From positions 1 to 64,000 of the IMG/VR virus record IMGVR_UViG_3300028601_000022: a stretch of DNA of 64,000 bases. One strand, 5' to 3'. Below, one piece after another: positions 266 through 63,893 of the stretch. Made by a program: the position numbers and the translations under genes. The notes beneath the pieces are model-generated. The model searched no databases. It was given only the letters and a program-made list of their open reading frames with translations, and had not been told where the DNA came from. Every line of letters begins with the position of its first letter. Position 1 is the stretch's first letter. This DNA comes from a virus (lineage: Duplodnaviria; Caudoviricetes).

Positions 266-361
266 GAACGAAAAGGAGCTAACATATCGGCCATTAGCGA
301 CGAAAAAATTAATGAAAAAATCAAACAAATAGACGACCACACCGCGAGGTTTTCAATATGA
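266..361 (+). pseudogene. 3' remnant of a HindIII-family restriction endonuclease gene
   Basis: Startless open frame ...ISDEKINEKIKQIDDHTARFSI* whose TGA overlaps the MTase ATG (ATGA). Resembles the R.HindIII C-terminus as recalled; AT-rich like the MTase. Confidence 0.4.
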
Positions 362-1294
362 TTGACCAGATTATACACGATGATTCGATAAAAAAAATAA
401 AAGCAATCCCCGATTGTAGTGTCCATGCTATTATCTCGGATATACCATATGGTATATGTTATAGTGAATGGGATATTTTACACGATAATAAGAATACAGC
501 TCTAGGAGGAGCATCTATAGCACAAACCAAAGCAGGTGAAATTTTCAAACGACGTGGCAAGCCTCTCAACGGTTGGAGTAACGCAGACAAAAAAATTCCG
601 TATGAATATCAAGAATGGTGCGCGTCATGGGGAAAAGAGTGGTTACGAGTTCTTAAACCAGGAGGCTCATGCCTAATCTTTGCTGGCAGAAGATACTCAC
701 ATCGCTGCATTGTTGCATTGGAAGACTGTGGTTTTACCTTCAAAGATATGATTGCGTGGGAAAAACCAACAGCACCATACAGGGCTCAAAGAATTTCAGA
801 AACGTATAAACGCCGTGGCGATTACAAAAATGCCCAAAAATGGTCAGGCTGGAGGGTTGCAAATCTTAGACCATTGTTTGAACCTATTCTTTGGTTACAA
901 AAGCCATATAAAACAGGTGGAACACTCGCAGACAATATCCTTATCAATAAGGTAGGCGGATGGAATCAAAATGCTTTAGAAAAATACAATGGTTTTGGAT
1001 ATTGCAAAAAAAGCGCATCTTTGCTCAAATATATTTCGTATTTCCAGTGACAAAGATGACCATGGGCTTCACGAAGCACAAAAACCCCTTAATCTGATGG
1101 AATGTTTAGTATCTCTGGTTACTAAGCGAGGGGCTTTAATATTGGACCCTTTCGCCGGCTCCGGGACTACCTGTGTGGCAGCTCAAAAGCTAGGGAGACA
1201 TTTCATAGGCATAGAAATAAATAAAAAATATGTGATGATAGCTAAACATCGCCTTAAACAACTACGGGAATGCTCCACCCCGGAAGTCATATAA
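358..1294 (+). CDS. hindIIIM: M.HindIII-like beta-class DNA adenine methyltransferase, split by a +1 frameshift at A7 (1006-1012)
   Basis: Motif IV SDIPY, RRGKPLNGWS and WRVANLRPLFEPILW in 358..1050; HEAQKP and motif I LDPFAGSGTT in 989..1294. Removing one A fuses the two frames. Confidence 0.88.
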
Positions 1295-2100: not shown

Positions 2101-2144
2101 CAGAAAGCGCGTCAACGCTGGGTTTTTAGCTCAAAAAGATAGGC

Positions 2145-2173
2145 TTGACATTTCCCTCTCCCTATGATATAAT
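2145..2173 (+). promoter_or_regulatory. Early sigma70 promoter P1
   Basis: TTGACA-17 bp-TATAAT with TGn extended -10. Confidence 0.9.
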
Positions 2174-2234
2174 GTAGTCACGGGGAGAGGTCTTCCCGTA
2201 TCTCGACAAACTCAACGCACCCTAGGAGGGCGAC

Positions 2235-2945
2235 ATGGCTACTGCTGACAAGAAAGCAACTGCGAAGGCATTGGTGAAGGCTGCGAAGAATGCGAAAAGC
2301 CCCAGCAAGGGCAAAGAGCCGAGCGCACCGAAAAAGGAAAAGGGCACGCCCAAGAACCTCATGACGTTCTATGTGAGCGCGAAGGGCACGGTCATCAGCG
2401 GGCATGTGACCCCAAAGAACAAGGCCACTCCCTACTTTGAGTTCAGCATTGACGGCAACCAACTCCAATTGCGCTGGGCCCCTAAGGGGACAGCGGCGGT
2501 TTCGCTTCGCATATTGAAAGCCAGCCTGGCCAAGAACTCCGCGGATGAACTCTGCGGCCGAATCCGCGGAAAGCTTAGCCCGGATCTCTTCAAGATTCTG
2601 CGCCCCATTTTTGCCTGGCTGATTGAGCGCGTTAAGAACGACACCCTGGACCAACCGAAAGTTGGCCGCTGCTGGCGTGAAATGCCAAAAGCAAACCCAA
2701 CGGCACCCGACTGCACCAAGCCTTGCTTGAAGGCTACGGTCAAGCCCGCAACCGAAAATGTGTTCTCAACAGCCGAGTTTGTCCAGCGCACGAAAGTTTG
2801 GCAGCTGGCTCAAGTGACCGGCCATGATGCCCTCGTGTGCCGCAAGATGCTTGAACGGCACGGGTACGACCTTGACGCGGCCTACGCTGAATTTCTTGGG
2901 TACGCAGAACGCACAGCCCGCGAAATTAGCGGGTCTGATAGCTAG
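2235..2945 (+). CDS. Early basic protein with Lys-rich N-terminus and C-terminal UBA/TS-N-like domain
   Basis: AGGAGG RBS; directly behind P1. Confidence 0.75.
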   Translation: MATADKKATAKALVKAAKNAKSPSKGKEPSAPKKEKGTPKNLMTFYVSAKGTVISGHVTPKNKATPYFEFSIDGNQLQLRWAPKGTAAVSLRILKASLAKNSADELCGRIRGKLSPDLFKILRPIFAWLIERVKNDTLDQPKVGRCWREMPKANPTAPDCTKPCLKATVKPATENVFSTAEFVQRTKVWQLAQVTGHDALVCRKMLERHGYDLDAAYAEFLGYAERTAREISGSDS

Positions 2946-2955
2946 CCCGGTGGGC

Positions 2956-2984
2956 TTGACATTGTCCTCTCCCTGTGATATAAT
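2956..2984 (+). promoter_or_regulatory. Early sigma70 promoter P2
   Basis: TTGACA-17-TATAAT, extended -10. Confidence 0.9.
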
Positions 2985-3030
2985 AAGTCATAGGGAGAGG
3001 GCGTTCGCAAACCCAATAGGCATGCGAGGC

Positions 3031-3059
3031 TTGACATTCTCCTCGTCCTGTGATATAAT
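3031..3059 (+). promoter_or_regulatory. Early sigma70 promoter P3
   Basis: TTGACA-17-TATAAT, extended -10. Confidence 0.9.
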
Positions 3060-3080
3060 GTAGTTGAGGGCGATAGGGAA

Positions 3081-3141
3081 CGCTAACTAGGCTGACTGCC
3101 CGGGGCAAACTCAACAGCCGCTCAACCGAGCAAAATTAGCG
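3081..3141 (+). ncRNA. Putative structured RNA / leader downstream of P3
   Basis: CGCTAA...TTAGCG closing stem enclosing GGCTG..CAGCC and GCTC-AACC-GAGC hairpins. Confidence 0.35.
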
Positions 3142-3167
3142 AGGACGAAAGGGTTACGGTATTAGGG

Positions 3168-3196
3168 TTGACATTCGGAACGACCTGTGATATAAT
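3168..3196 (+). promoter_or_regulatory. Early sigma70 promoter P4
   Basis: TTGACA-17-TATAAT, extended -10. Confidence 0.9.
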
Positions 3197-3243
3197 AAGT
3201 CACAGGGACAGGGACAGGAAGAGAGCTACGCTCAAAACGTCCC

Positions 3244-13960: not shown

Positions 13961-14067
13961 GAAAGTTGAGGAAATAGAAGCCCCTGCGGGTGCCCTGTGT
14001 GGTGTGTACAGCATGCCTAGGAGCATCCGCAGGGGCATTTTTCTAGCAGACGTGTCAATACACACGT
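13961..14067 (+). repeat. Structured dispersed element, copy C
   Basis: TGAGGAAA..GAAGC, long stem with TGTGGTGT loop, T-run, then CGTGTCAATAYACACGT; homologous to 49251 and 61401 copies. Confidence 0.8.
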
Positions 14068-49250: not shown

Positions 49251-49335
49251 GGAAATGTGCGGAAAAGGAAGCTCCTATGATACCCCAGGATACACCACAG
49301 GGTACCCGTAGGAGCTTCTTTTTGGGCAAATTTTC
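49251..49335 (+). repeat. Structured dispersed element, copy A (core inverted)
   Basis: GGAAAAGGAAGCTCCTA...TAGGAGCTTCTTTTTGGGC. Confidence 0.85.
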
Positions 49336-58680: not shown

Positions 58681-59289
58681 CTAAGAGGTGAAGCCGTCAG
58701 CGTAAACCGAGGGGAAGACCAGGTCTGCCGAAATCGCCTCTTCCGTGAAGTAGTCAAAGGCGAAGCTGATAGCAGGCTGCATCGGGTCTGCGGTAGAGCC
58801 GTCGAAGTCACCACGCTGGTAGCCTTCCACATACACACCGATAAGGGTGTATTTGTAGATGGGTTCATCCAGGTTGTTAAGCTGGTAAAGTTCAATGATG
58901 CCTTCAAGGTCGGCCTTGAACTGCGTGATACCAGAACTGTTGCCTGTGGGAACTTCGCGGTTGGTATCCCAATACAGGTTGTGCCAATCATGCAGCATCT
59001 TCTGCACGAAGGTATCGTTGGTTTCCATCAGGGTGCAGCTCCACGGGCTGGTGTATTCAGCAGTACCCGGCTGGCGCACTTTGTTGCCGCGAATCTGTAT
59101 TTCAGCCGAAGTACCGGTCTTTTCAGGCACCGAGGCCGAAAGGGCGCGGATGTTGAAGTCCTGACTGGCATTTGCCCACTGCGACATTTTGTTGGGCCAC
59201 TGGGTTACCTTAATACCCCAGCGAAACATCTGGCTGAAATTACCAAGTTTTCGCAGGTTATTGGTAGAGGGCCGAAGGGAGTTCGCCAT
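58681..59289 (-). CDS. Tail tube protein (T4 gp19-like)
   Basis: SVP, IRG..V..PG..EY..W, ET.D, YQL, F.FDYF. Confidence 0.85.
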   Translation of the reverse strand: MANSLRPSTNNLRKLGNFSQMFRWGIKVTQWPNKMSQWANASQDFNIRALSASVPEKTGTSAEIQIRGNKVRQPGTAEYTSPWSCTLMETNDTFVQKMLHDWHNLYWDTNREVPTGNSSGITQFKADLEGIIELYQLNNLDEPIYKYTLIGVYVEGYQRGDFDGSTADPMQPAISFAFDYFTEEAISADLVFPSVYADGFTS

Positions 59290-59367: not shown

Positions 59368-61311
59368 ATGAACAAAGCTTCAAAAACCGTCTTTGAAAAG
59401 CACGTGGCTTCTGCTTATACAGGATACGATTGGTCTTCCTTAGAACTTGACAAAAGTGGTAAACTATCCCCTCATGGTAAGAAAACCAACCTTAAATGCT
59501 ATGAGTCCTTTTCTGCGCAGTACCCCTCGGTATGCCCTACCTTTGAATATTTCAAGCTCCTGTCCAGGTTCTTCCTGTCATATCACTTAAATACAACCAG
59601 GGTTATAAGCAGCTATGTTTGCCCGGTTTGCCGAAGCGCCCCTAAGAAAGGAATATGCAATAGCGGCAAGAACGGTAAGTACAAAGGTGAAACCTGCGGT
59701 AGCCTAGAGTGCCAGACCGAACTTAGAAAAAGAACTAACATGGAGAAGGGAGGCAATACCTGCGCTCTCCATCGTTCTGATGTAAAGTCTAAGGTAGAAG
59801 CATCCTTTCAGCGGAACTGGGGAGTTAATAACGCAGGTCAGTCCGAAAAGATACGGAACAAGTGGAAACAGACAAACAGGGAAAAGACAGGATATGACTT
59901 CCAGTTTCAGAATCCGTCTATTCGGAAAAAGATAAAGGAAACCTGCATAGAGAAGTACGGAGCTCCTAACGTAATGTGCGCAGAGTCCTCTATGCGGAAA
60001 GAAATAGACAAGAAGCTCAATTCAGAGGCTACCGTTCGGAAAAGACGGGAAACCATGAAAACCCGCGGTGTAATAGGATGTAAATCCTCTTCAGAAGATA
60101 ACCTATACCGGACGTTACTAGAATACTTCCCTGAGGTAGAGCGCCAGTACGGGGACGACAGGTACAACTTTAAATGCGACTTCTATGTACCTATAAATGA
60201 CCTGTTTATTGAATACCAAGGATACTTTTGCCATGGTGGTAGGCCGTATAATACAAAAGACCCAGTTTGCCGGTCTTTGGTGAAGAAATGGGAGCATAGG
60301 GCGTCTTTAAAGTATAAGAAAGGAAAACACGCGCCCTTTTACTCAAACGCCATCAAAATCTATACAGAATTGGATGTGCGGAAAAGAAACACCGCAAGAA
60401 ACAATTCCTTAAATTGGAAGGAATTTTTCTCTGAACCAGAAGTTCTTGCTTGGCTAAGTAGCCTGTACCCTAACACCTACTATGACAAACTAAAGGTTAT
60501 ATTCAAGGTCTCCGCACTAAGACGGGAATATGAACTAATACACGCCTCAATACCAGGCTATGATAAGGTTCCAAGGCATAATAAGCTAGTCTTACAGTTT
60601 CAAAGTAGGTTATTCTTTAAGCAGGAACTGAAAATGTGGAAAGACCAGAGAGTAAGGGAGAAGCTTGTAGCCAACAGGCTTAAGTACATAGGGAAAGGCT
60701 GGGGAGAGCTGACGGCATGGGAGATTTTAAGGGGATTCAAAATAAGCGGCATGGTGAAAGCACCATTTTCCCACTTTAGCCAGCACTGGATGAGAAAATT
60801 TATAGAGGACTACAAGGTTACCAGCATATATGACCCGTGCGGTGGGTGGGGGCACCGGCTTACTGCGTGCACGAGGGAATTCCCGTATATCTATAATGAT
60901 ATAAGAAGTAAGGTTACCGCGAACTGCAAAGAGCTAGCCGAGTTTCTAGGGATGGAAAATAAAGTCTTCTATAACGAGGACGCAGCCAGCCTATCCCCTA
61001 AGGAAAACTATGATGCAGTCTTTACCTGCCCGCCTTATTGGAACACGGAAGTATATTCTACGAAGGGGGCCGAAAACCTGCCCAGGGAGGGGTTCTTTAA
61101 ATGGTGGGGTAAGGTAATAAAAGCTGCATGCAAAAAGAAGCCCAGGTTGTTTGCTTTCGTTATTTCAGGGTATTTAAAGAAAGAAATGGTTGAGGTATGC
61201 AAAAACAAAGGTCTTAATTTTGAAGCCTCTTATGAGTTAGGGAGAAGTAAAAGCCACTTCAATAAGGGGCCTATTAGCTCAAAAGAGTACCTAGTGATAT
61301 TTACAACATAG
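59368..61311 (+). CDS. Endonuclease-methyltransferase fusion (Zn finger, KYG-type repeats, PD-(D/E)XK Vsr-like nuclease, amino-MTase)
   Basis: CPVC..TCGSLEC; EKYGAPN; SSSE..LY...ERQY...CDFY...FIEYQG.F.H; IYDPCGGWG; FTCPPYW. Confidence 0.8.
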   Translation: MNKASKTVFEKHVASAYTGYDWSSLELDKSGKLSPHGKKTNLKCYESFSAQYPSVCPTFEYFKLLSRFFLSYHLNTTRVISSYVCPVCRSAPKKGICNSGKNGKYKGETCGSLECQTELRKRTNMEKGGNTCALHRSDVKSKVEASFQRNWGVNNAGQSEKIRNKWKQTNREKTGYDFQFQNPSIRKKIKETCIEKYGAPNVMCAESSMRKEIDKKLNSEATVRKRRETMKTRGVIGCKSSSEDNLYRTLLEYFPEVERQYGDDRYNFKCDFYVPINDLFIEYQGYFCHGGRPYNTKDPVCRSLVKKWEHRASLKYKKGKHAPFYSNAIKIYTELDVRKRNTARNNSLNWKEFFSEPEVLAWLSSLYPNTYYDKLKVIFKVSALRREYELIHASIPGYDKVPRHNKLVLQFQSRLFFKQELKMWKDQRVREKLVANRLKYIGKGWGELTAWEILRGFKISGMVKAPFSHFSQHWMRKFIEDYKVTSIYDPCGGWGHRLTACTREFPYIYNDIRSKVTANCKELAEFLGMENKVFYNEDAASLSPKENYDAVFTCPPYWNTEVYSTKGAENLPREGFFKWWGKVIKAACKKKPRLFAFVISGYLKKEMVEVCKNKGLNFEASYELGRSKSHFNKGPISSKEYLVIFTT

Positions 61312-61400
61312 GAGAAAAGAATGCACCAGGGCACAAGATACTTAACGGCGGAAGCCTAAGACGGTTGCAATCACCGGCTCTACCAAGTTCAGGACGCTAG

Positions 61401-61506
61401 ACGTGTATATTGACACGCATTGCTGAAAATAGCCCAAAAAGAGGCTCCTATGATACCCCAGGATACACCACAGGGTACTCATAGGAGCTTCCTTTTCCTC
61501 ATTTCC
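61401..61506 (-). repeat. Structured dispersed element, copy B
   Basis: Reverse complement aligns end to end with copy C and with the flanks of copy A. Confidence 0.85.
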
Positions 61507-61535: not shown

Positions 61536-62132
61536 TTATTTGCGTTTGGCAGCACCGGGCATGTATTTGTGAACGTCCTTCATTTGGCGTTGAACGTCGC
61601 CTTCGGTCACCTTGAAGCCTTCAACGGCATCGTCAAGAATGACCGTGTTGGACGCAGTAATACTTGCAGCTTCGGTAATGGGTTCGCCCATTACACCAAG
61701 GGCAGCGCAAGCCGCAGTGATGGCTGCTTCTTCCAGTTCGTAGCCTGCGTAGCTGTGGTTGCAGCCAGGGCACACCGGGTCACCGATGCAGGCCGTAAGC
61801 TTGCACTTAGGGCACACTTTCAGGATATGCTCATTGGCCGCGGCCAACACGGTAAGCTTGCCTCCGGAGAAGTCAAACGTAAACGTGCTGTTTACAGAAG
61901 CGGCGCCAGTGAGACCGTGCGCACCAATAAGGGGACGATAGGGGCGCCCGTAGTTGTCGGCCACGCGATTGTAGTTAAGGATGATGGATACCATGTTGCG
62001 CAGGGTAGAAGCGTTGGCTTCTGCCAGGAAAGGGCATTCTTCAAGCAGGTTTTCCACGACAGCCGCTTCCAGGGCTTCCCGAGTATCAAACACTTTCTTG
62101 CTGAGGGATTCAGCAATTGATATGATGGGCAT
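61536..62132 (-). CDS. Zn-ribbon head-module protein
   Basis: AAGGAG RBS; CPKC..CPGC; AITA|A, SITA|S. Confidence 0.7.
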   Translation of the reverse strand: MPIISIAESLSKKVFDTREALEAAVVENLLEECPFLAEANASTLRNMVSIILNYNRVADNYGRPYRPLIGAHGLTGAASVNSTFTFDFSGGKLTVLAAANEHILKVCPKCKLTACIGDPVCPGCNHSYAGYELEEAAITAACAALGVMGEPITEAASITASNTVILDDAVEGFKVTEGDVQRQMKDVHKYMPGAAKRK

Positions 62133-62135
62133 GGT

Positions 62136-63893
62136 CTATCTCCTTTTGGTGACGGACTTCAAATAGTTCATAATGTAGTTCAACTGGCTGGGTTTAAGTT
62201 CCACGCTCTTTCCAAGAACAGCCGAAGCAAGGGCATTTACTGACGCTGTACCCTTTAACGAGATAGGCTCTACCTCGGCATTAACCTTATCCGAGGAGTT
62301 CAGTTGGAACGGGTCATCACCCTCACCCTCCTCGTCTGCCGGCATCAGCTTCTTCACCTTTTTCAGGTAGTCCGCCATCTTTTCACGAACCTTAAGGTCA
62401 TCCTCGTAGGAGGACACGATGGTGTCAATGTCCGCGCCGGCTGCCGTTGCAAGCATTGCGGCCGGAAGAGGAATGCCTGAGTCTTTCAGTTCCTTCATAA
62501 GAGAAAGCTCGGAAGAACTACCAGTAGGGGTAAGGTCCTTGGTCCACTTCAAATCGGGTATGACGTAAGTGGAAATTTCAGCCATATTGCGCGAGCCTGT
62601 AAGTTGGGCGAACTTATACAGGAACGCATTGCGCTTAGCCTTATTGGACTTAACGTCATACTGAATCTTATGGTCTCTTTCAGCCTGGGTACGCTCCCTG
62701 AAATTGTGGTACTTTGCAAGGGAGAGGAAAATCTTGTCACGAATGATGGCGCGTGTAAGTTCCTGCCGTTGGTCACGGAGGTTTTCCAACATAAGGCCGA
62801 TAGTATTTTCCTGGTTAGAGTACGTTGCATCACCAGACAGGAAACTGTCGGATACGCCGAGAGCACGCAACTTGGCTTGCGTAAAGCCGTCGGATTCAGA
62901 AGAATGGCTCCACAAGTCTGTAGGGCTCTTTACTTCCGACACCGTAACGTCAGGTCGTGTAACAACTGCTGCACCAAGGGGGTCACGGTCAGCGTTTGCA
63001 AAGAGTTCCGCAACGGATTGATACTGCGACAGGTCATAGTCTACATCATCCGAACCCATCGTAATGTGCAGAATACTTTTCTGCCTGCGGGTGGATGCAA
63101 GAATAGTACCGCGAAGGAGGCACTTTTCAAGCAGCCAGATAGGAAGGATACGGGAGAATACGCTAACGCCCTCAGAGCCGGGCAAATGGGTTCGTGTAAC
63201 GTAGATTGTTTTCAGCGGCTCCAACTCAATTTTACCGGATCCAAGCATAAGCTTAATGTCTTCAGGAGGCAACTCCTTTCGGGCCTCTATATCGCGCGTG
63301 TCCGTGGAGTTCAACCACTTCTTGAACTCCTTGCTCAACTTGATATTGATTTTAGGGTCGTACCCAATGAATGGGATAGGGATAATTTCCGCTTCCGACG
63401 CATTGTAAAGAATGCAGTCTGTGAAGATGCCCCGGCTCTTATCAAACACAAGCGAGCCGACACCGCGCCCCAGTACCATGTTAGAGGTCAGGAACAGCTT
63501 CATGAGCCTTTGGATGGAAAGCTCCTCAAGAGAGGACTCATACAGGGCCTTAATCTTTGGGTCAGACACCCCGAGGATGGAATAGTCGCTCCAAGGGAGC
63601 ATGGACATCATGTCCACTACCGGCCCTGAAACAGCGTCCATAAGGTATATCTCTCGATAGGTATTGTCGAGAGTTATTGTATCGTTGGTGTTGAGGATAT
63701 CCTGCAACAACGGAAAAGAAAGGTCAATACCACCAAGGTATGTACCGCCTGAACCAAAGTTGCCGCCGGCCCCTGAAGCAGAACCAGGGCCCATGCCGCC
63801 ACCGGTCCCCTGGGATGCAGCACCCGTAAGGGTAGCCCTTGGTCTTGTTCCGCTAGCAGAGCCGGTTACTGCGACTGTATTATAATCAAACAT
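62136..63893 (-). CDS. Portal protein
   Basis: 585 aa; YREIY..D...G.VVD, G.S...RIL, LRALGV..SFLSG.ATYS; helical portal-like architecture. Confidence 0.75.
   Translation of the reverse strand: MFDYNTVAVTGSASGTRPRATLTGAASQGTGGGMGPGSASGAGGNFGSGGTYLGGIDLSFPLLQDILNTNDTITLDNTYREIYLMDAVSGPVVDMMSMLPWSDYSILGVSDPKIKALYESSLEELSIQRLMKLFLTSNMVLGRGVGSLVFDKSRGIFTDCILYNASEAEIIPIPFIGYDPKINIKLSKEFKKWLNSTDTRDIEARKELPPEDIKLMLGSGKIELEPLKTIYVTRTHLPGSEGVSVFSRILPIWLLEKCLLRGTILASTRRQKSILHITMGSDDVDYDLSQYQSVAELFANADRDPLGAAVVTRPDVTVSEVKSPTDLWSHSSESDGFTQAKLRALGVSDSFLSGDATYSNQENTIGLMLENLRDQRQELTRAIIRDKIFLSLAKYHNFRERTQAERDHKIQYDVKSNKAKRNAFLYKFAQLTGSRNMAEISTYVIPDLKWTKDLTPTGSSSELSLMKELKDSGIPLPAAMLATAAGADIDTIVSSYEDDLKVREKMADYLKKVKKLMPADEEGEGDDPFQLNSSDKVNAEVEPISLKGTASVNALASAVLGKSVELKPSQLNYIMNYLKSVTKRR

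What the first reader, a model, noticed from the sequence alone, without database searches (positions are those of the whole stretch)
59368..61311. Homing-endonuclease-like nuclease fused to its own methyltransferase, inserted antisense among structural genes
Seen: a single AT-richer ORF on the opposite strand between tube and portal, with Zn finger, KYG/WG-xx-N repeats, PD-(D/E)XK (Vsr/DUF559-like) nuclease, then an amino-MTase with motif I DPCGGWG and an unusual motif IV CPPY. Element copy B follows directly. Inference: a self-protecting selfish element bridging homing endonucleases and Type IIG R-M, or a device that marks own DNA and cuts competitor or host DNA.
Basis: partly seen in the sequence, partly recalled or inferred. 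Interest (0 to 1): 0.7.

Follow-up and report, generated by a model that had tools for sequence, protein, structure and literature searches.

The report
Mobile phage nuclease fused to methyltransferase
A jumbo phage carries a mobile "homing" DNA-cutting gene fused to an unusual DNA-methylating domain; the same methylating module is attached to at least three unrelated kinds of homing nuclease in hundreds of other viruses, which suggests an unstudied link between selfish nucleases and restriction-modification systems.

Summary
Window 59368-61311 (+) is one intact 647-aa ORF, antisense between the tail tube and portal modules, and the lowest-GC stretch of the window.

Its parts are:
- a 4-Cys zinc ribbon;
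- DUF7487 repeats;
- a Vsr-like PD-(D/E)XK nuclease with an E-D-x-H-D residue pattern;
- a class-I SAM methyltransferase with invariant DPCGGWG and CPPY motifs, preceded by a conserved helical subdomain.

The fusion is real and common. The CPPY module forms at least 346 clusters (50% identity) and has no Pfam family. Atlas labels it virus-only. It is fused to Vsr-like, HNH/EndoVII-like and LAGLIDADG nucleases, with many partner switches.

The gene behaves as a mobile element:
- Relatives with 83% and 67% identical portals lack it at this slot.
- A 98% identical copy shows DNA identity falling with distance into the tube gene.
- One relative has lost the nuclease core in frame but kept the methyltransferase.

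All parts are under purifying selection.

That the methyltransferase shields the phage's own DNA from the linked nuclease is the best reading, but it is inferred, not shown. I found no paper describing such fusions. The scan had flagged this same stretch once before, read in another window of this genome.

The parts
59368..61311 (+). Whole ORF (647 aa, P0001): homing-endonuclease-methyltransferase fusion
   Evidence: dN/dS 0.14 against the 98% identical copy
59368..59619 (+). N-terminal region, aa 1-84, shared only with the closest alleles at this slot (P0003, P0004, P0008, P0037)
59620..59712 (+). 4-Cys zinc ribbon, aa 85-115 (CxxC...CxxxxC)
   Evidence: C85, C88, C110 and C115 invariant in 12 homologs
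59713..60039 (+). DUF7487 repeats (K-x3-T-x3-K-x-G units), aa 116-224; presumed DNA-binding modules
   Evidence: Pfam PF24308 E 3e-18; phrog_3339 and phrog_12131 'homing endonuclease'
60040..60504 (+). Vsr-like PD-(D/E)XK nuclease domain, aa 225-379, with E243, D271, E282, H289, D336
60505..60807 (+). Conserved helical subdomain that always accompanies the methyltransferase core, aa 380-480 (invariant N405, E420, N436, R437)
60808..61308 (+). Rossmann SAM-methyltransferase core, aa 481-647; motif I DPCGGWG at 60832-60852; motif II N510-D511; motif IV CPPY at 61027-61038
61352..61390 (+). 13-codon remnant (85% identity) of the 124-aa gene that fills this slot in the relative without the element (L016)
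61425..61496 (.).
58681..59289 (-). Tail tube gene, divergent neighbour. DNA identity to the L006 relative falls from 98% next to the element to 92% at its far end, then to 60-75%
61536..62132 (-). Conserved 198-aa gene that bounds the variable slot on the portal side

Best explanation
This is a free-standing homing endonuclease gene of the Vsr-like (EDxHD-type) class. It sits in a hypervariable antisense slot just upstream of the tail tube gene of a jumbo phage distantly related to PaBG.

Its N-terminal zinc ribbon and DUF7487 repeats bind DNA, and the Vsr-like domain cuts it. The C-terminal module, a conserved helical subdomain plus a Rossmann core with DPCGGWG and CPPY, is an active SAM-dependent DNA amino-methyltransferase. 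It is a divergent branch of the N6_N4 DNA methylases, probably making N4-methylcytosine or N6-methyladenine.

Shown here: the architecture, intact active sites, purifying selection on all parts, presence/absence polymorphism at a fixed site, a flank identity gradient typical of homing, and repeated fusion of the same methyltransferase module to unrelated homing nucleases.

Inferred mechanism: the methyltransferase marks the phage's own DNA so that the linked nuclease does not cut it. Unmarked genomes of co-infecting relatives are cut near the tube gene and repaired from the element-bearing copy, which spreads the gene. This is restriction-modification logic used for homing. Nuclease-less derivatives that keep the methyltransferase would then be immune alleles.
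For: Domains and folds.

Motif conservation: the residues listed are invariant in 109 homologs, and 233 of 240 collected C-domains carry CPPY.

Link to DNA methylases: Staphylococcus phage Alsa MTase (FTSPPY, PF01555 E 5.6e-17) and Listeria phage B054 gp77 (FTCPPY, PF01555 E 7e-11) are the nearest annotated relatives. Atlas clusters are auto-named cytosine-N4 DNA methyltransferase.

Coupling to homing nucleases: fusions to Vsr-like (about 120), HNH/EndoVII-like (about 21), LAGLIDADG (4) and DUF723 partners. A tree of the methyltransferase domains needs at least 38 partner changes. A stand-alone MTase overlaps an EndoVII-like gene just after the gp23 capsid gene in a T4-like contig.

Mobility: L016 and L017 (portal 83%) and L018 (portal 67%) lack the gene at this slot. 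A remnant of the displaced gene survives. The element is 96-100% identical to L006, the tube gene falls from 98% to 92% with distance, and identity beyond it is 60-75%. dS is 0.066 in the element against 0.20 in the tube gene. The ORF has the lowest GC in the window.

Selection: dN/dS is 0.12-0.20 in each part.

P0004 is an in-frame deletion of the nuclease core with an intact methyltransferase.
Against: - No activity, substrate base or recognition sequence is known for any member.
- The helical subdomain and core are highly conserved, and no variable recognition domain is visible. One module would therefore have to protect the very different targets of many nucleases. That works only if it methylates very frequent sites or is aimed by the nuclease's DNA-binding part.
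- The closest solved structures are tRNA m2G methyltransferases (Trm14, aTrm11, TrmN), not DNA enzymes.
- Cys in place of Asp/Asn/Ser in motif IV has no characterised precedent that I could find.
- The identity gradient is seen on one flank only, and ordinary phage mosaicism could produce it.
- The sister allele P0008 has a different C-terminal domain of unknown function, so a methyltransferase is not obligatory for this nuclease.
- The phage also carries a canonical PF01555 methylase elsewhere.
Confidence: 0.5

Rival explanations
1. Anti-restriction cargo. The methyltransferase protects phage DNA from host restriction enzymes. The homing nuclease only makes this useful gene mobile, and there is no functional link between the two activities.
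For: Orphan methylases are common in phages and are thought to counter host restriction (PMC9957025 abstract). Stand-alone forms of the module exist (about 51 of 221). The nuclease-less derivative P0004 is conserved.
Against: Cargo does not need to sit in the same polypeptide. Yet the module has been fused again and again, always C-terminally, to nucleases of unrelated folds. Where it stands alone, it can overlap a nuclease gene.
Confidence: 0.22
2. DNA-binding module. The methyltransferase fold serves the nuclease as a target-recognition or base-flipping domain, and methyl transfer is incidental or lost.
For: It occupies the C-terminal position that another non-catalytic-looking module, shared between phrog_3339 and phrog_559, occupies in the sister allele P0008. 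Homing nucleases are typically built of a catalytic part plus DNA-binding modules (PMC3239194).
Against: The SAM-binding residues (D489, G493, G495, D511) and catalytic-loop residues (C554, P556, Y557, E561) are invariant over 109 sequences that are otherwise about 40% identical. That pattern is expected for catalysis, not for binding alone.
Confidence: 0.1
3. Phage-borne Type IIG-like restriction enzyme. It is used to degrade host DNA or exclude superinfecting phages, and it is not a homing element.
For: A nuclease, a helical linker and a methyltransferase lie in one chain, as in BpuSI-type enzymes. The nuclease model matches BpuSI 3s1s only weakly (Z 3.9).
Against: There is no target-recognition domain after the methyltransferase and no NPPY motif. 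The nuclease partners are homing-type families (DUF7487/F-LimIII-like, LAGLIDADG, HNH, EndoVII). The genes sit beside highly conserved structural genes, are sporadically distributed, and show a flank identity gradient.
Confidence: 0.08
4. RNA methyltransferase. The C-terminal domain methylates a tRNA or rRNA guanine N2 or adenine N6, unrelated to DNA marking.
For: The best structural neighbours are Trm14, aTrm11 and TrmN (Z 17.2-17.6) and METTL5. There are weak NCBIfam hits to PrmC- and PrmB-type enzymes.
Against: The sequence relatives that reach significance are phage DNA methylases of PF01555. The exclusive partners are DNA nucleases and DNA-binding modules. The beta-class DNA methylases in the PDB are circularly permuted, which lowers their structural scores.
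Confidence: 0.05

Closest known systems
EDxHD / Vsr-like homing endonucleases (I-Bth0305I, PDB 3r3p; T-even 'Hef' type), PMC3239194
   Same: Vsr-like catalytic fold (Z 6.8 to 3r3p, Z 8.3 to Vsr). Conserved E, D, H, D residues. N-terminal modular DNA-binding repeats followed by the nuclease. Phage-borne.
   Different: Free-standing rather than intron-encoded. DUF7487 repeats plus a zinc ribbon instead of NUMOD2. A long helical insert between the His and the last Asp. A C-terminal methyltransferase that no characterised member has.
F-LimIII-type putative homing endonucleases of Dickeya phage LIMEstone1 and the Lak megaphage ORFs (phrog_3339)
   Same: DUF7487 repeats plus the same nuclease domain, 28-34% identity over aa 80-366.
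   Different: They carry a different C-terminal module, the one seen in the sister allele P0008, and no methyltransferase.
Type IIG / IIC restriction-modification fusion enzymes (e.g. BpuSI, MmeI)
   Same: N-terminal PD-(D/E)XK nuclease, helical connector and amino-methyltransferase in one polypeptide. Possible self-marking logic.
   Different: Those have a gamma-class NPPY adenine methylase followed by a variable target-recognition domain. They are cellular defence genes. Here the motif is CPPY, there is no recognition domain, Atlas labels the related clusters viral, and the nuclease families and genomic behaviour are of the homing type.
Phage orphan DNA methylases of the N6_N4_Mtase family (Listeria phage B054 gp77 ParB-N-MTase; Staphylococcus phage Alsa MTase)
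   Same: Nearest annotated sequence relatives (27-29% identity). Same motif order I then IV. B054 gp77 also has FTCPPY.
   Different: They lack the conserved helical subdomain in this form, are not fused to homing nucleases, and reach the Pfam PF01555 threshold, which P0001 does not.
Actinophage methylase genes invaded by an intein, a LAGLIDADG gene and the 'ShiLan' hidden HNH (PMC9957025, PMC11855218)
   Same: Physical association of homing nucleases with phage methylase genes.
   Different: There the nuclease is an insertion inside, or out of frame with, a methylase gene that is its target. Here the nuclease and the methylase are two domains of one protein, inserted between structural genes.

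Membership tests
Vsr-like / EDxHD homing endonucleases | Vsr-type PD-(D/E)XK catalytic fold | tested here: met
   AF2 model pLDDT 90.5. VIA-align gives Vsr 1cw0 Z 8.3 (111 aa, rmsd 3.8), 3r3p Z 6.8 (86 aa) and 3hrl Z 6.5. Foldseek alone was weak (E 0.22).
Vsr-like / EDxHD homing endonucleases | Composite E-D-x-H-D active-site residues | tested here: met
   E243, D271, H289 and D336 are invariant and E282 is at least 90% conserved in 71 homologs. The D-to-H spacing of 18 equals Vsr D51-H69. One-to-one equivalence to the Vsr residues is inferred, not superposed.
Vsr-like / EDxHD homing endonucleases | Sporadic presence at a fixed site between conserved genes, with alleles that lack it | tested here: met
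   Present in the window, L006, L002, L007 and L008. Absent in L016, L017 and L018.
Vsr-like / EDxHD homing endonucleases | Site-specific cleavage of the element-free allele and gene conversion | not testable with these tools
   Indirect only: identity gradient into the tube gene and a dS three times lower than the flank.
DNA amino-methyltransferases (N6_N4_Mtase, PF01555-like) | Class-I Rossmann SAM-binding fold with motif I (D/E-x-G-x-G) and an acidic motif II | tested here: met
   Model pLDDT 92.9, many methyltransferases at Z 14-17.6. DPCGGWG and N510-D511 are conserved.
DNA amino-methyltransferases (N6_N4_Mtase, PF01555-like) | Motif IV (D/N/S)-P-P-(Y/F/W) | tested here: not met
   The first residue is Cys: C554 is invariant in all 109 aligned homologs, and 233 of 240 collected C-domains carry CPPY. 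The nearest SPPY relative is the Alsa MTase. Cys is near-isosteric with Ser, so function may be kept, but the canonical motif is not met.
DNA amino-methyltransferases (N6_N4_Mtase, PF01555-like) | Scores above the Pfam gathering threshold | tested here: not met
   P0001 has no PF01555 hit even at E 10. Relatives at 27-29% identity do hit, and 15-63% of members of the related Atlas clusters do, or 98% in the DUF723-fused cluster.
DNA amino-methyltransferases (N6_N4_Mtase, PF01555-like) | Methyl transfer to exocyclic N of A or C in DNA | not testable with these tools
   Needs a methylome or an in vitro assay.
Type IIG restriction-modification enzymes | Nuclease and methyltransferase in one polypeptide | tested here: met
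Type IIG restriction-modification enzymes | Gamma-class NPPY methyltransferase followed by a variable target-recognition domain | tested here: not met
   The protein ends with the last strand of the Rossmann core. The motif is CPPY. No variable region longer than about 12 aa is present.
Type IIG restriction-modification enzymes | Cleavage at a fixed distance from a short recognition site, blocked by its own methylation | not testable with these tools
   -

The most novel reading that the evidence does not exclude
The CPPY module is the shared 'antidote' of a virus-wide class of homing restriction-modification elements. One portable DNA methyltransferase gives epigenetic self-immunity to homing nucleases of at least three unrelated folds (Vsr-like, HNH/EndoVII, LAGLIDADG). 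Methyltransferase-only derivatives such as P0004 and the stand-alone forms would then be immune alleles that resist invasion. This would be a mechanistic and evolutionary bridge between homing endonucleases and restriction-modification systems.
Probability: 0.35. Interest if true: 0.8.

Novelty: new variant of a known kind. Interest (0 to 1): 0.62.

Why it matters
Free-standing homing nucleases must avoid cutting their own genome. The known solutions are target-site differences or bulk DNA hypermodification. A nuclease with its own methyltransferase built in would be a third solution, and it is the one used by restriction-modification systems.

This would turn the long-discussed kinship of homing and restriction enzymes into something testable with one protein.

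The CPPY module is also a large, unnamed methyltransferase family that Atlas labels viral. It has at least 346 clusters at 50% identity, and its catalytic-loop residue (Cys) has no characterised precedent that I could find. Its product and specificity could matter for reading phage methylomes, and possibly as a compact methylation tool that could be targeted.

Tried and rejected
- DNA searches: megablast of the gene and of 14 kb around it against GenBank phages found nothing.
- Related loci: IMG/VR scans with the portal and with a tube-protein profile found no relatives. The metagenome scan found only 36-41% identical tube genes with a different gene order, useless as empty-site controls.
- Families: Pfam, NCBIfam and PDB sequence profiles give only sub-threshold hits for the methyltransferase part.
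- Nuclease profile: its PDB sequence hits to phycobilisome linkers are judged spurious.
- Foldseek on the nuclease model was not significant. VIA-align was needed.
- Mom/GNAT lead: Atlas pointed to this for the alternative C-terminal domain of the sister allele P0008. Pfam scans of 11 homologs and a PDB profile search did not confirm it.
- Close relatives: the contigs of the closest portal relatives (P0249, P0250, P0252) end at the edge of the slot, so they say nothing on presence or absence.
- Promoter: only a 9-of-12 sigma-70-like match precedes the gene, which is no better than chance.
- Literature: searches for DUF7487, CPPY and homing endonuclease-methyltransferase fusions found no description.
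- Assembly artefact or two genes read as one: rejected, because the same continuous architecture recurs in independent samples.
Full report
**1. What is there**

Window 59368-61311 (+) is a single 647-aa ORF (P0001) with an ATG start. The window is the first 64 kb of a 142.8-kb IMG/VR virus record that CheckV rates about 52% complete. The portal is 31-34% identical to those of jumbo phages PaBG, Erwinia Y3 and Dickeya JA11.

All neighbours are on the minus strand:
- a 970-aa baseplate-type protein;
- gp25;
- small genes that include a PAAR homolog, annotated in the relatives' contigs;
- the tail tube gene (58681-59289);
- after the ORF, a 198-aa gene and the portal (62136-63893).

The ORF has GC 0.435, the lowest of all 1944-bp windows (mean 0.511, sd 0.024). 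A 72-nt hairpin lies 114 nt downstream, between convergent genes (61425-61496). It has a second copy at 49252-49323, a fold z-score of -5.8, and an A-run before and a T-run after it.

**2. Domain anatomy**

- **aa 85-115: zinc ribbon.** The four Cys are invariant in 12 homologs.
- **aa 116-224: DUF7487 repeats.** Pfam PF24308 and PHROG 'homing endonuclease' families match. By tblastn the N-terminal 80-366 resembles ORFs of Lak megaphages and the putative homing endonuclease F-LimIII of Dickeya phage LIMEstone1.
- **aa 225-379: nuclease.** With a 71-sequence alignment it folds at pLDDT 90.5. Its best PDB matches are Vsr (Z 8.3), VRR_NUC, the I-Bth0305I catalytic domain (Z 6.8) and a DUF559-like protein (Z 6.5). 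E243, D271, H289 and D336 are invariant and E282 is nearly so. This matches the composite EDxHD motif that defines the Vsr-like homing endonucleases, which also have DNA-binding repeats N-terminal to the nuclease (PMC3239194).
- **aa 380-647: methyltransferase.** It folds at pLDDT 92.9 as a helical subdomain plus a Rossmann SAM-methyltransferase core. The best matches are the amino-methyltransferases Trm14, aTrm11 and TrmN (Z 17.2-17.6). A profile alignment to aTrm11 lines up DPCGGWG with motif I, YiyND with motif II and CPPY with DPPY.

**3. The methyltransferase module is a family of its own**

In 109 homologs about 40% identical to P0001, the following are invariant: E420, N436, R437, D489, G493, W494, G495, C554, P556, Y557 and E561. 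Nearly invariant (100-108 of 109) are N405, P490, C491, R497, D511 and P555.

An exhaustive profile search finds 346 clusters (50% identity) at E <= 1e-30 and 2437 at E <= 1e-10. Of 240 collected domains, 233 carry CPPY.

No Pfam family covers the module. The nearest annotated relatives are phage DNA methylases:
- the Staphylococcus phage Alsa MTase (FTSPPY, PF01555 E 5.6e-17);
- Listeria phage B054 gp77, a ParB-N-methylase that also has FTCPPY (PF01555 E 7e-11).

ESM Atlas neighbours are 77-100% viral by its labels. They are auto-named cytosine-N4 DNA methyltransferases, and include 'LAGLIDADG/DNA methylase', 'DUF723/DNA methylase' and 'DUF7487/DNA methylase' clusters.

I therefore read CPPY as a Ser-to-Cys variant of the SPPY loop of DNA amino-methyltransferases. 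That is an inference. I found no paper that mentions a CPPY methyltransferase.

**4. The module travels with homing nucleases**

Of 221 near-complete domains:
- about 117 follow a Vsr-like nuclease;
- about 21 follow an HNH or EndoVII-like nuclease;
- 4 follow a LAGLIDADG nuclease;
- a few follow DUF723/CapR modules;
- about 51 stand alone with at most a short HTH-like extension.

The module is almost always at the C-terminus. A FastTree of the methyltransferase domains needs at least 38 changes of partner type. Well-supported branches force at least 18 for Vsr and at least 8 for HNH/EndoVII. Two caveats apply: this is a quick tree, and some 'alone' rows may be truncated gene calls.

In T4-like contigs, a stand-alone copy overlaps the stop of a 251-aa EndoVII-like gene immediately after the gp23 capsid gene. 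A fused copy sits after gp23 next to a second DUF7487 gene. These are typical places for free-standing homing genes.

**5. Behaviour at this locus**

Four relatives share the gp25-PAAR-tube context and have a gene at the same place:

| Locus | Tube identity | Gene at the slot |
|---|---|---|
| L006 | 97% | 98% identical |
| L002 | 83% | 64% identical |
| L007 | 61% | P0004 |
| L008 | 62% | P0008 |

- P0004 is a clean in-frame deletion of about aa 197-362. That removes the nuclease core, while the zinc ribbon, the repeats and a fully conserved methyltransferase remain.
- P0008 keeps the nuclease. In place of the methyltransferase it carries the C-terminal module of phrog_3339/phrog_559.

Relatives reached through the portal give the empty sites:
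- **L016 and L017** (portal 83%, tube about 87%) hold only a 124-aa antisense gene between the hairpin and the tube gene. The window keeps a 13-codon remnant of that gene at 61352-61390.
- **L018** (portal 67%) has a nine-gene antisense cassette. Its 150-aa deoxyribosyltransferase-like gene abuts the tube gene. In L008 the same gene (86% identical) is separated from the tube gene by P0008.

Homology between alleles breaks about 20-30 bp upstream of the tube start codon.

Against L006, DNA identity is 96-100% across the element. In the tube gene it falls from 98% to 92% with distance. It is then 60-75%, and 80-92% further away. dS is 0.066 in the element against 0.20 in the tube gene. dN/dS is 0.12-0.20 in the N-terminal, nuclease and methyltransferase parts.

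This is what recent homing with co-conversion of the flank would leave. Only one flank could be seen, and ordinary mosaic recombination is not excluded.

**6. How it most likely works**

Shown: a mobile, selected, two-enzyme gene with intact active sites, and a methyltransferase module recurrently joined to homing nucleases.

Inferred: the methyltransferase marks the phage's own DNA and thereby protects it from the linked nuclease, while unmarked co-infecting relatives are cut near the tube gene and converted.

The module is very conserved and has no variable recognition domain. So either it methylates very frequent sites, or it is aimed by the DNA-binding part of the nuclease.

The rivals are anti-restriction cargo, a pure DNA-binding role, a Type IIG-like restriction enzyme, and an RNA methyltransferase. 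They are weighed in the Rival explanations section. None is excluded without biochemistry.

**7. Comparison and novelty**

The nuclease half is a member of the Vsr-like/EDxHD kind. The whole resembles Type IIG enzymes in layout only. It fails their defining NPPY-plus-recognition-domain feature.

Homing elements inside actinophage methylase genes are known (PMC9957025, PMC11855218). [quoted passage not shown]

Seven literature searches found no description of homing endonuclease-methyltransferase fusion proteins, of DUF7487, or of a CPPY motif. Databases carry automatic names for such fusions, so the architecture has been seen but, as far as I can find, not studied. I rate it a new variant of a known kind.

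The same stretch was noted once before by this scan, read in another window of this genome.

Noticed in passing
window 358-1294 (+): A canonical PF01555 N6_N4 DNA methylase is split over two overlapping frames (421-984 and 728-1246; ORFs 358-1050 and 989-1294). This could be a frameshift, a sequencing error or a pseudogene. The phage therefore has, or had, a second methyltransferase.
   Followed up: partly
window 49252-49323 and 61425-61496: A 72-nt hairpin repeat, 86% identical, with A-run and T-run flanks. It folds at -37 kcal/mol (z -5.8) and looks like a bidirectional terminator between convergent genes. Another reader lists a third copy near 13961.
   Followed up: partly
L008:3788-5734 (P0008 aa 350-648); also P0037, P0039, P0313: The sister allele of this gene carries another conserved C-terminal module (invariant NCFYGYR and GG-x-S motifs) that is shared between 'homing endonuclease' phrog_3339 and 'HNH' phrog_559. 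Atlas gave a low-rank lead to Mom/GNAT DNA-modification proteins, which Pfam and PDB profiles did not confirm. If it were a DNA-modifying enzyme, it would strengthen the self-marking model.
   Followed up: partly
Portal homologs P0258, P0268, P0269, P0312: Several relatives of the portal protein (37-72% identical over about half the query, 719-748 aa) carry an intein (PF14890). The portal gene of this phage group is therefore also a target of mobile elements.
   Followed up: no
L018:7787-11214 (-); L008:5731-6183 (+): The slot between the portal-side gene and the tube gene is a hypervariable antisense cassette. It holds one to nine small genes in relatives, including a nucleoside 2-deoxyribosyltransferase-like gene (PF05014, phrog_12607).
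   Followed up: partly
window 2142-3213: Four copies of a 49-nt unit with near-consensus TTGACA ... TGATATAAT promoter hexamers followed by a short hairpin. They are probably a bank of early promoters (family D4).
   Followed up: no
L005:6780-9974: In a T4-like contig, two DUF7487 genes sit back to back right after the gp23 capsid gene: a 368-aa one without the methyltransferase and a 657-aa one with it. The upstream 1114-aa gene carries an intein with a LAGLIDADG domain.
   Followed up: no
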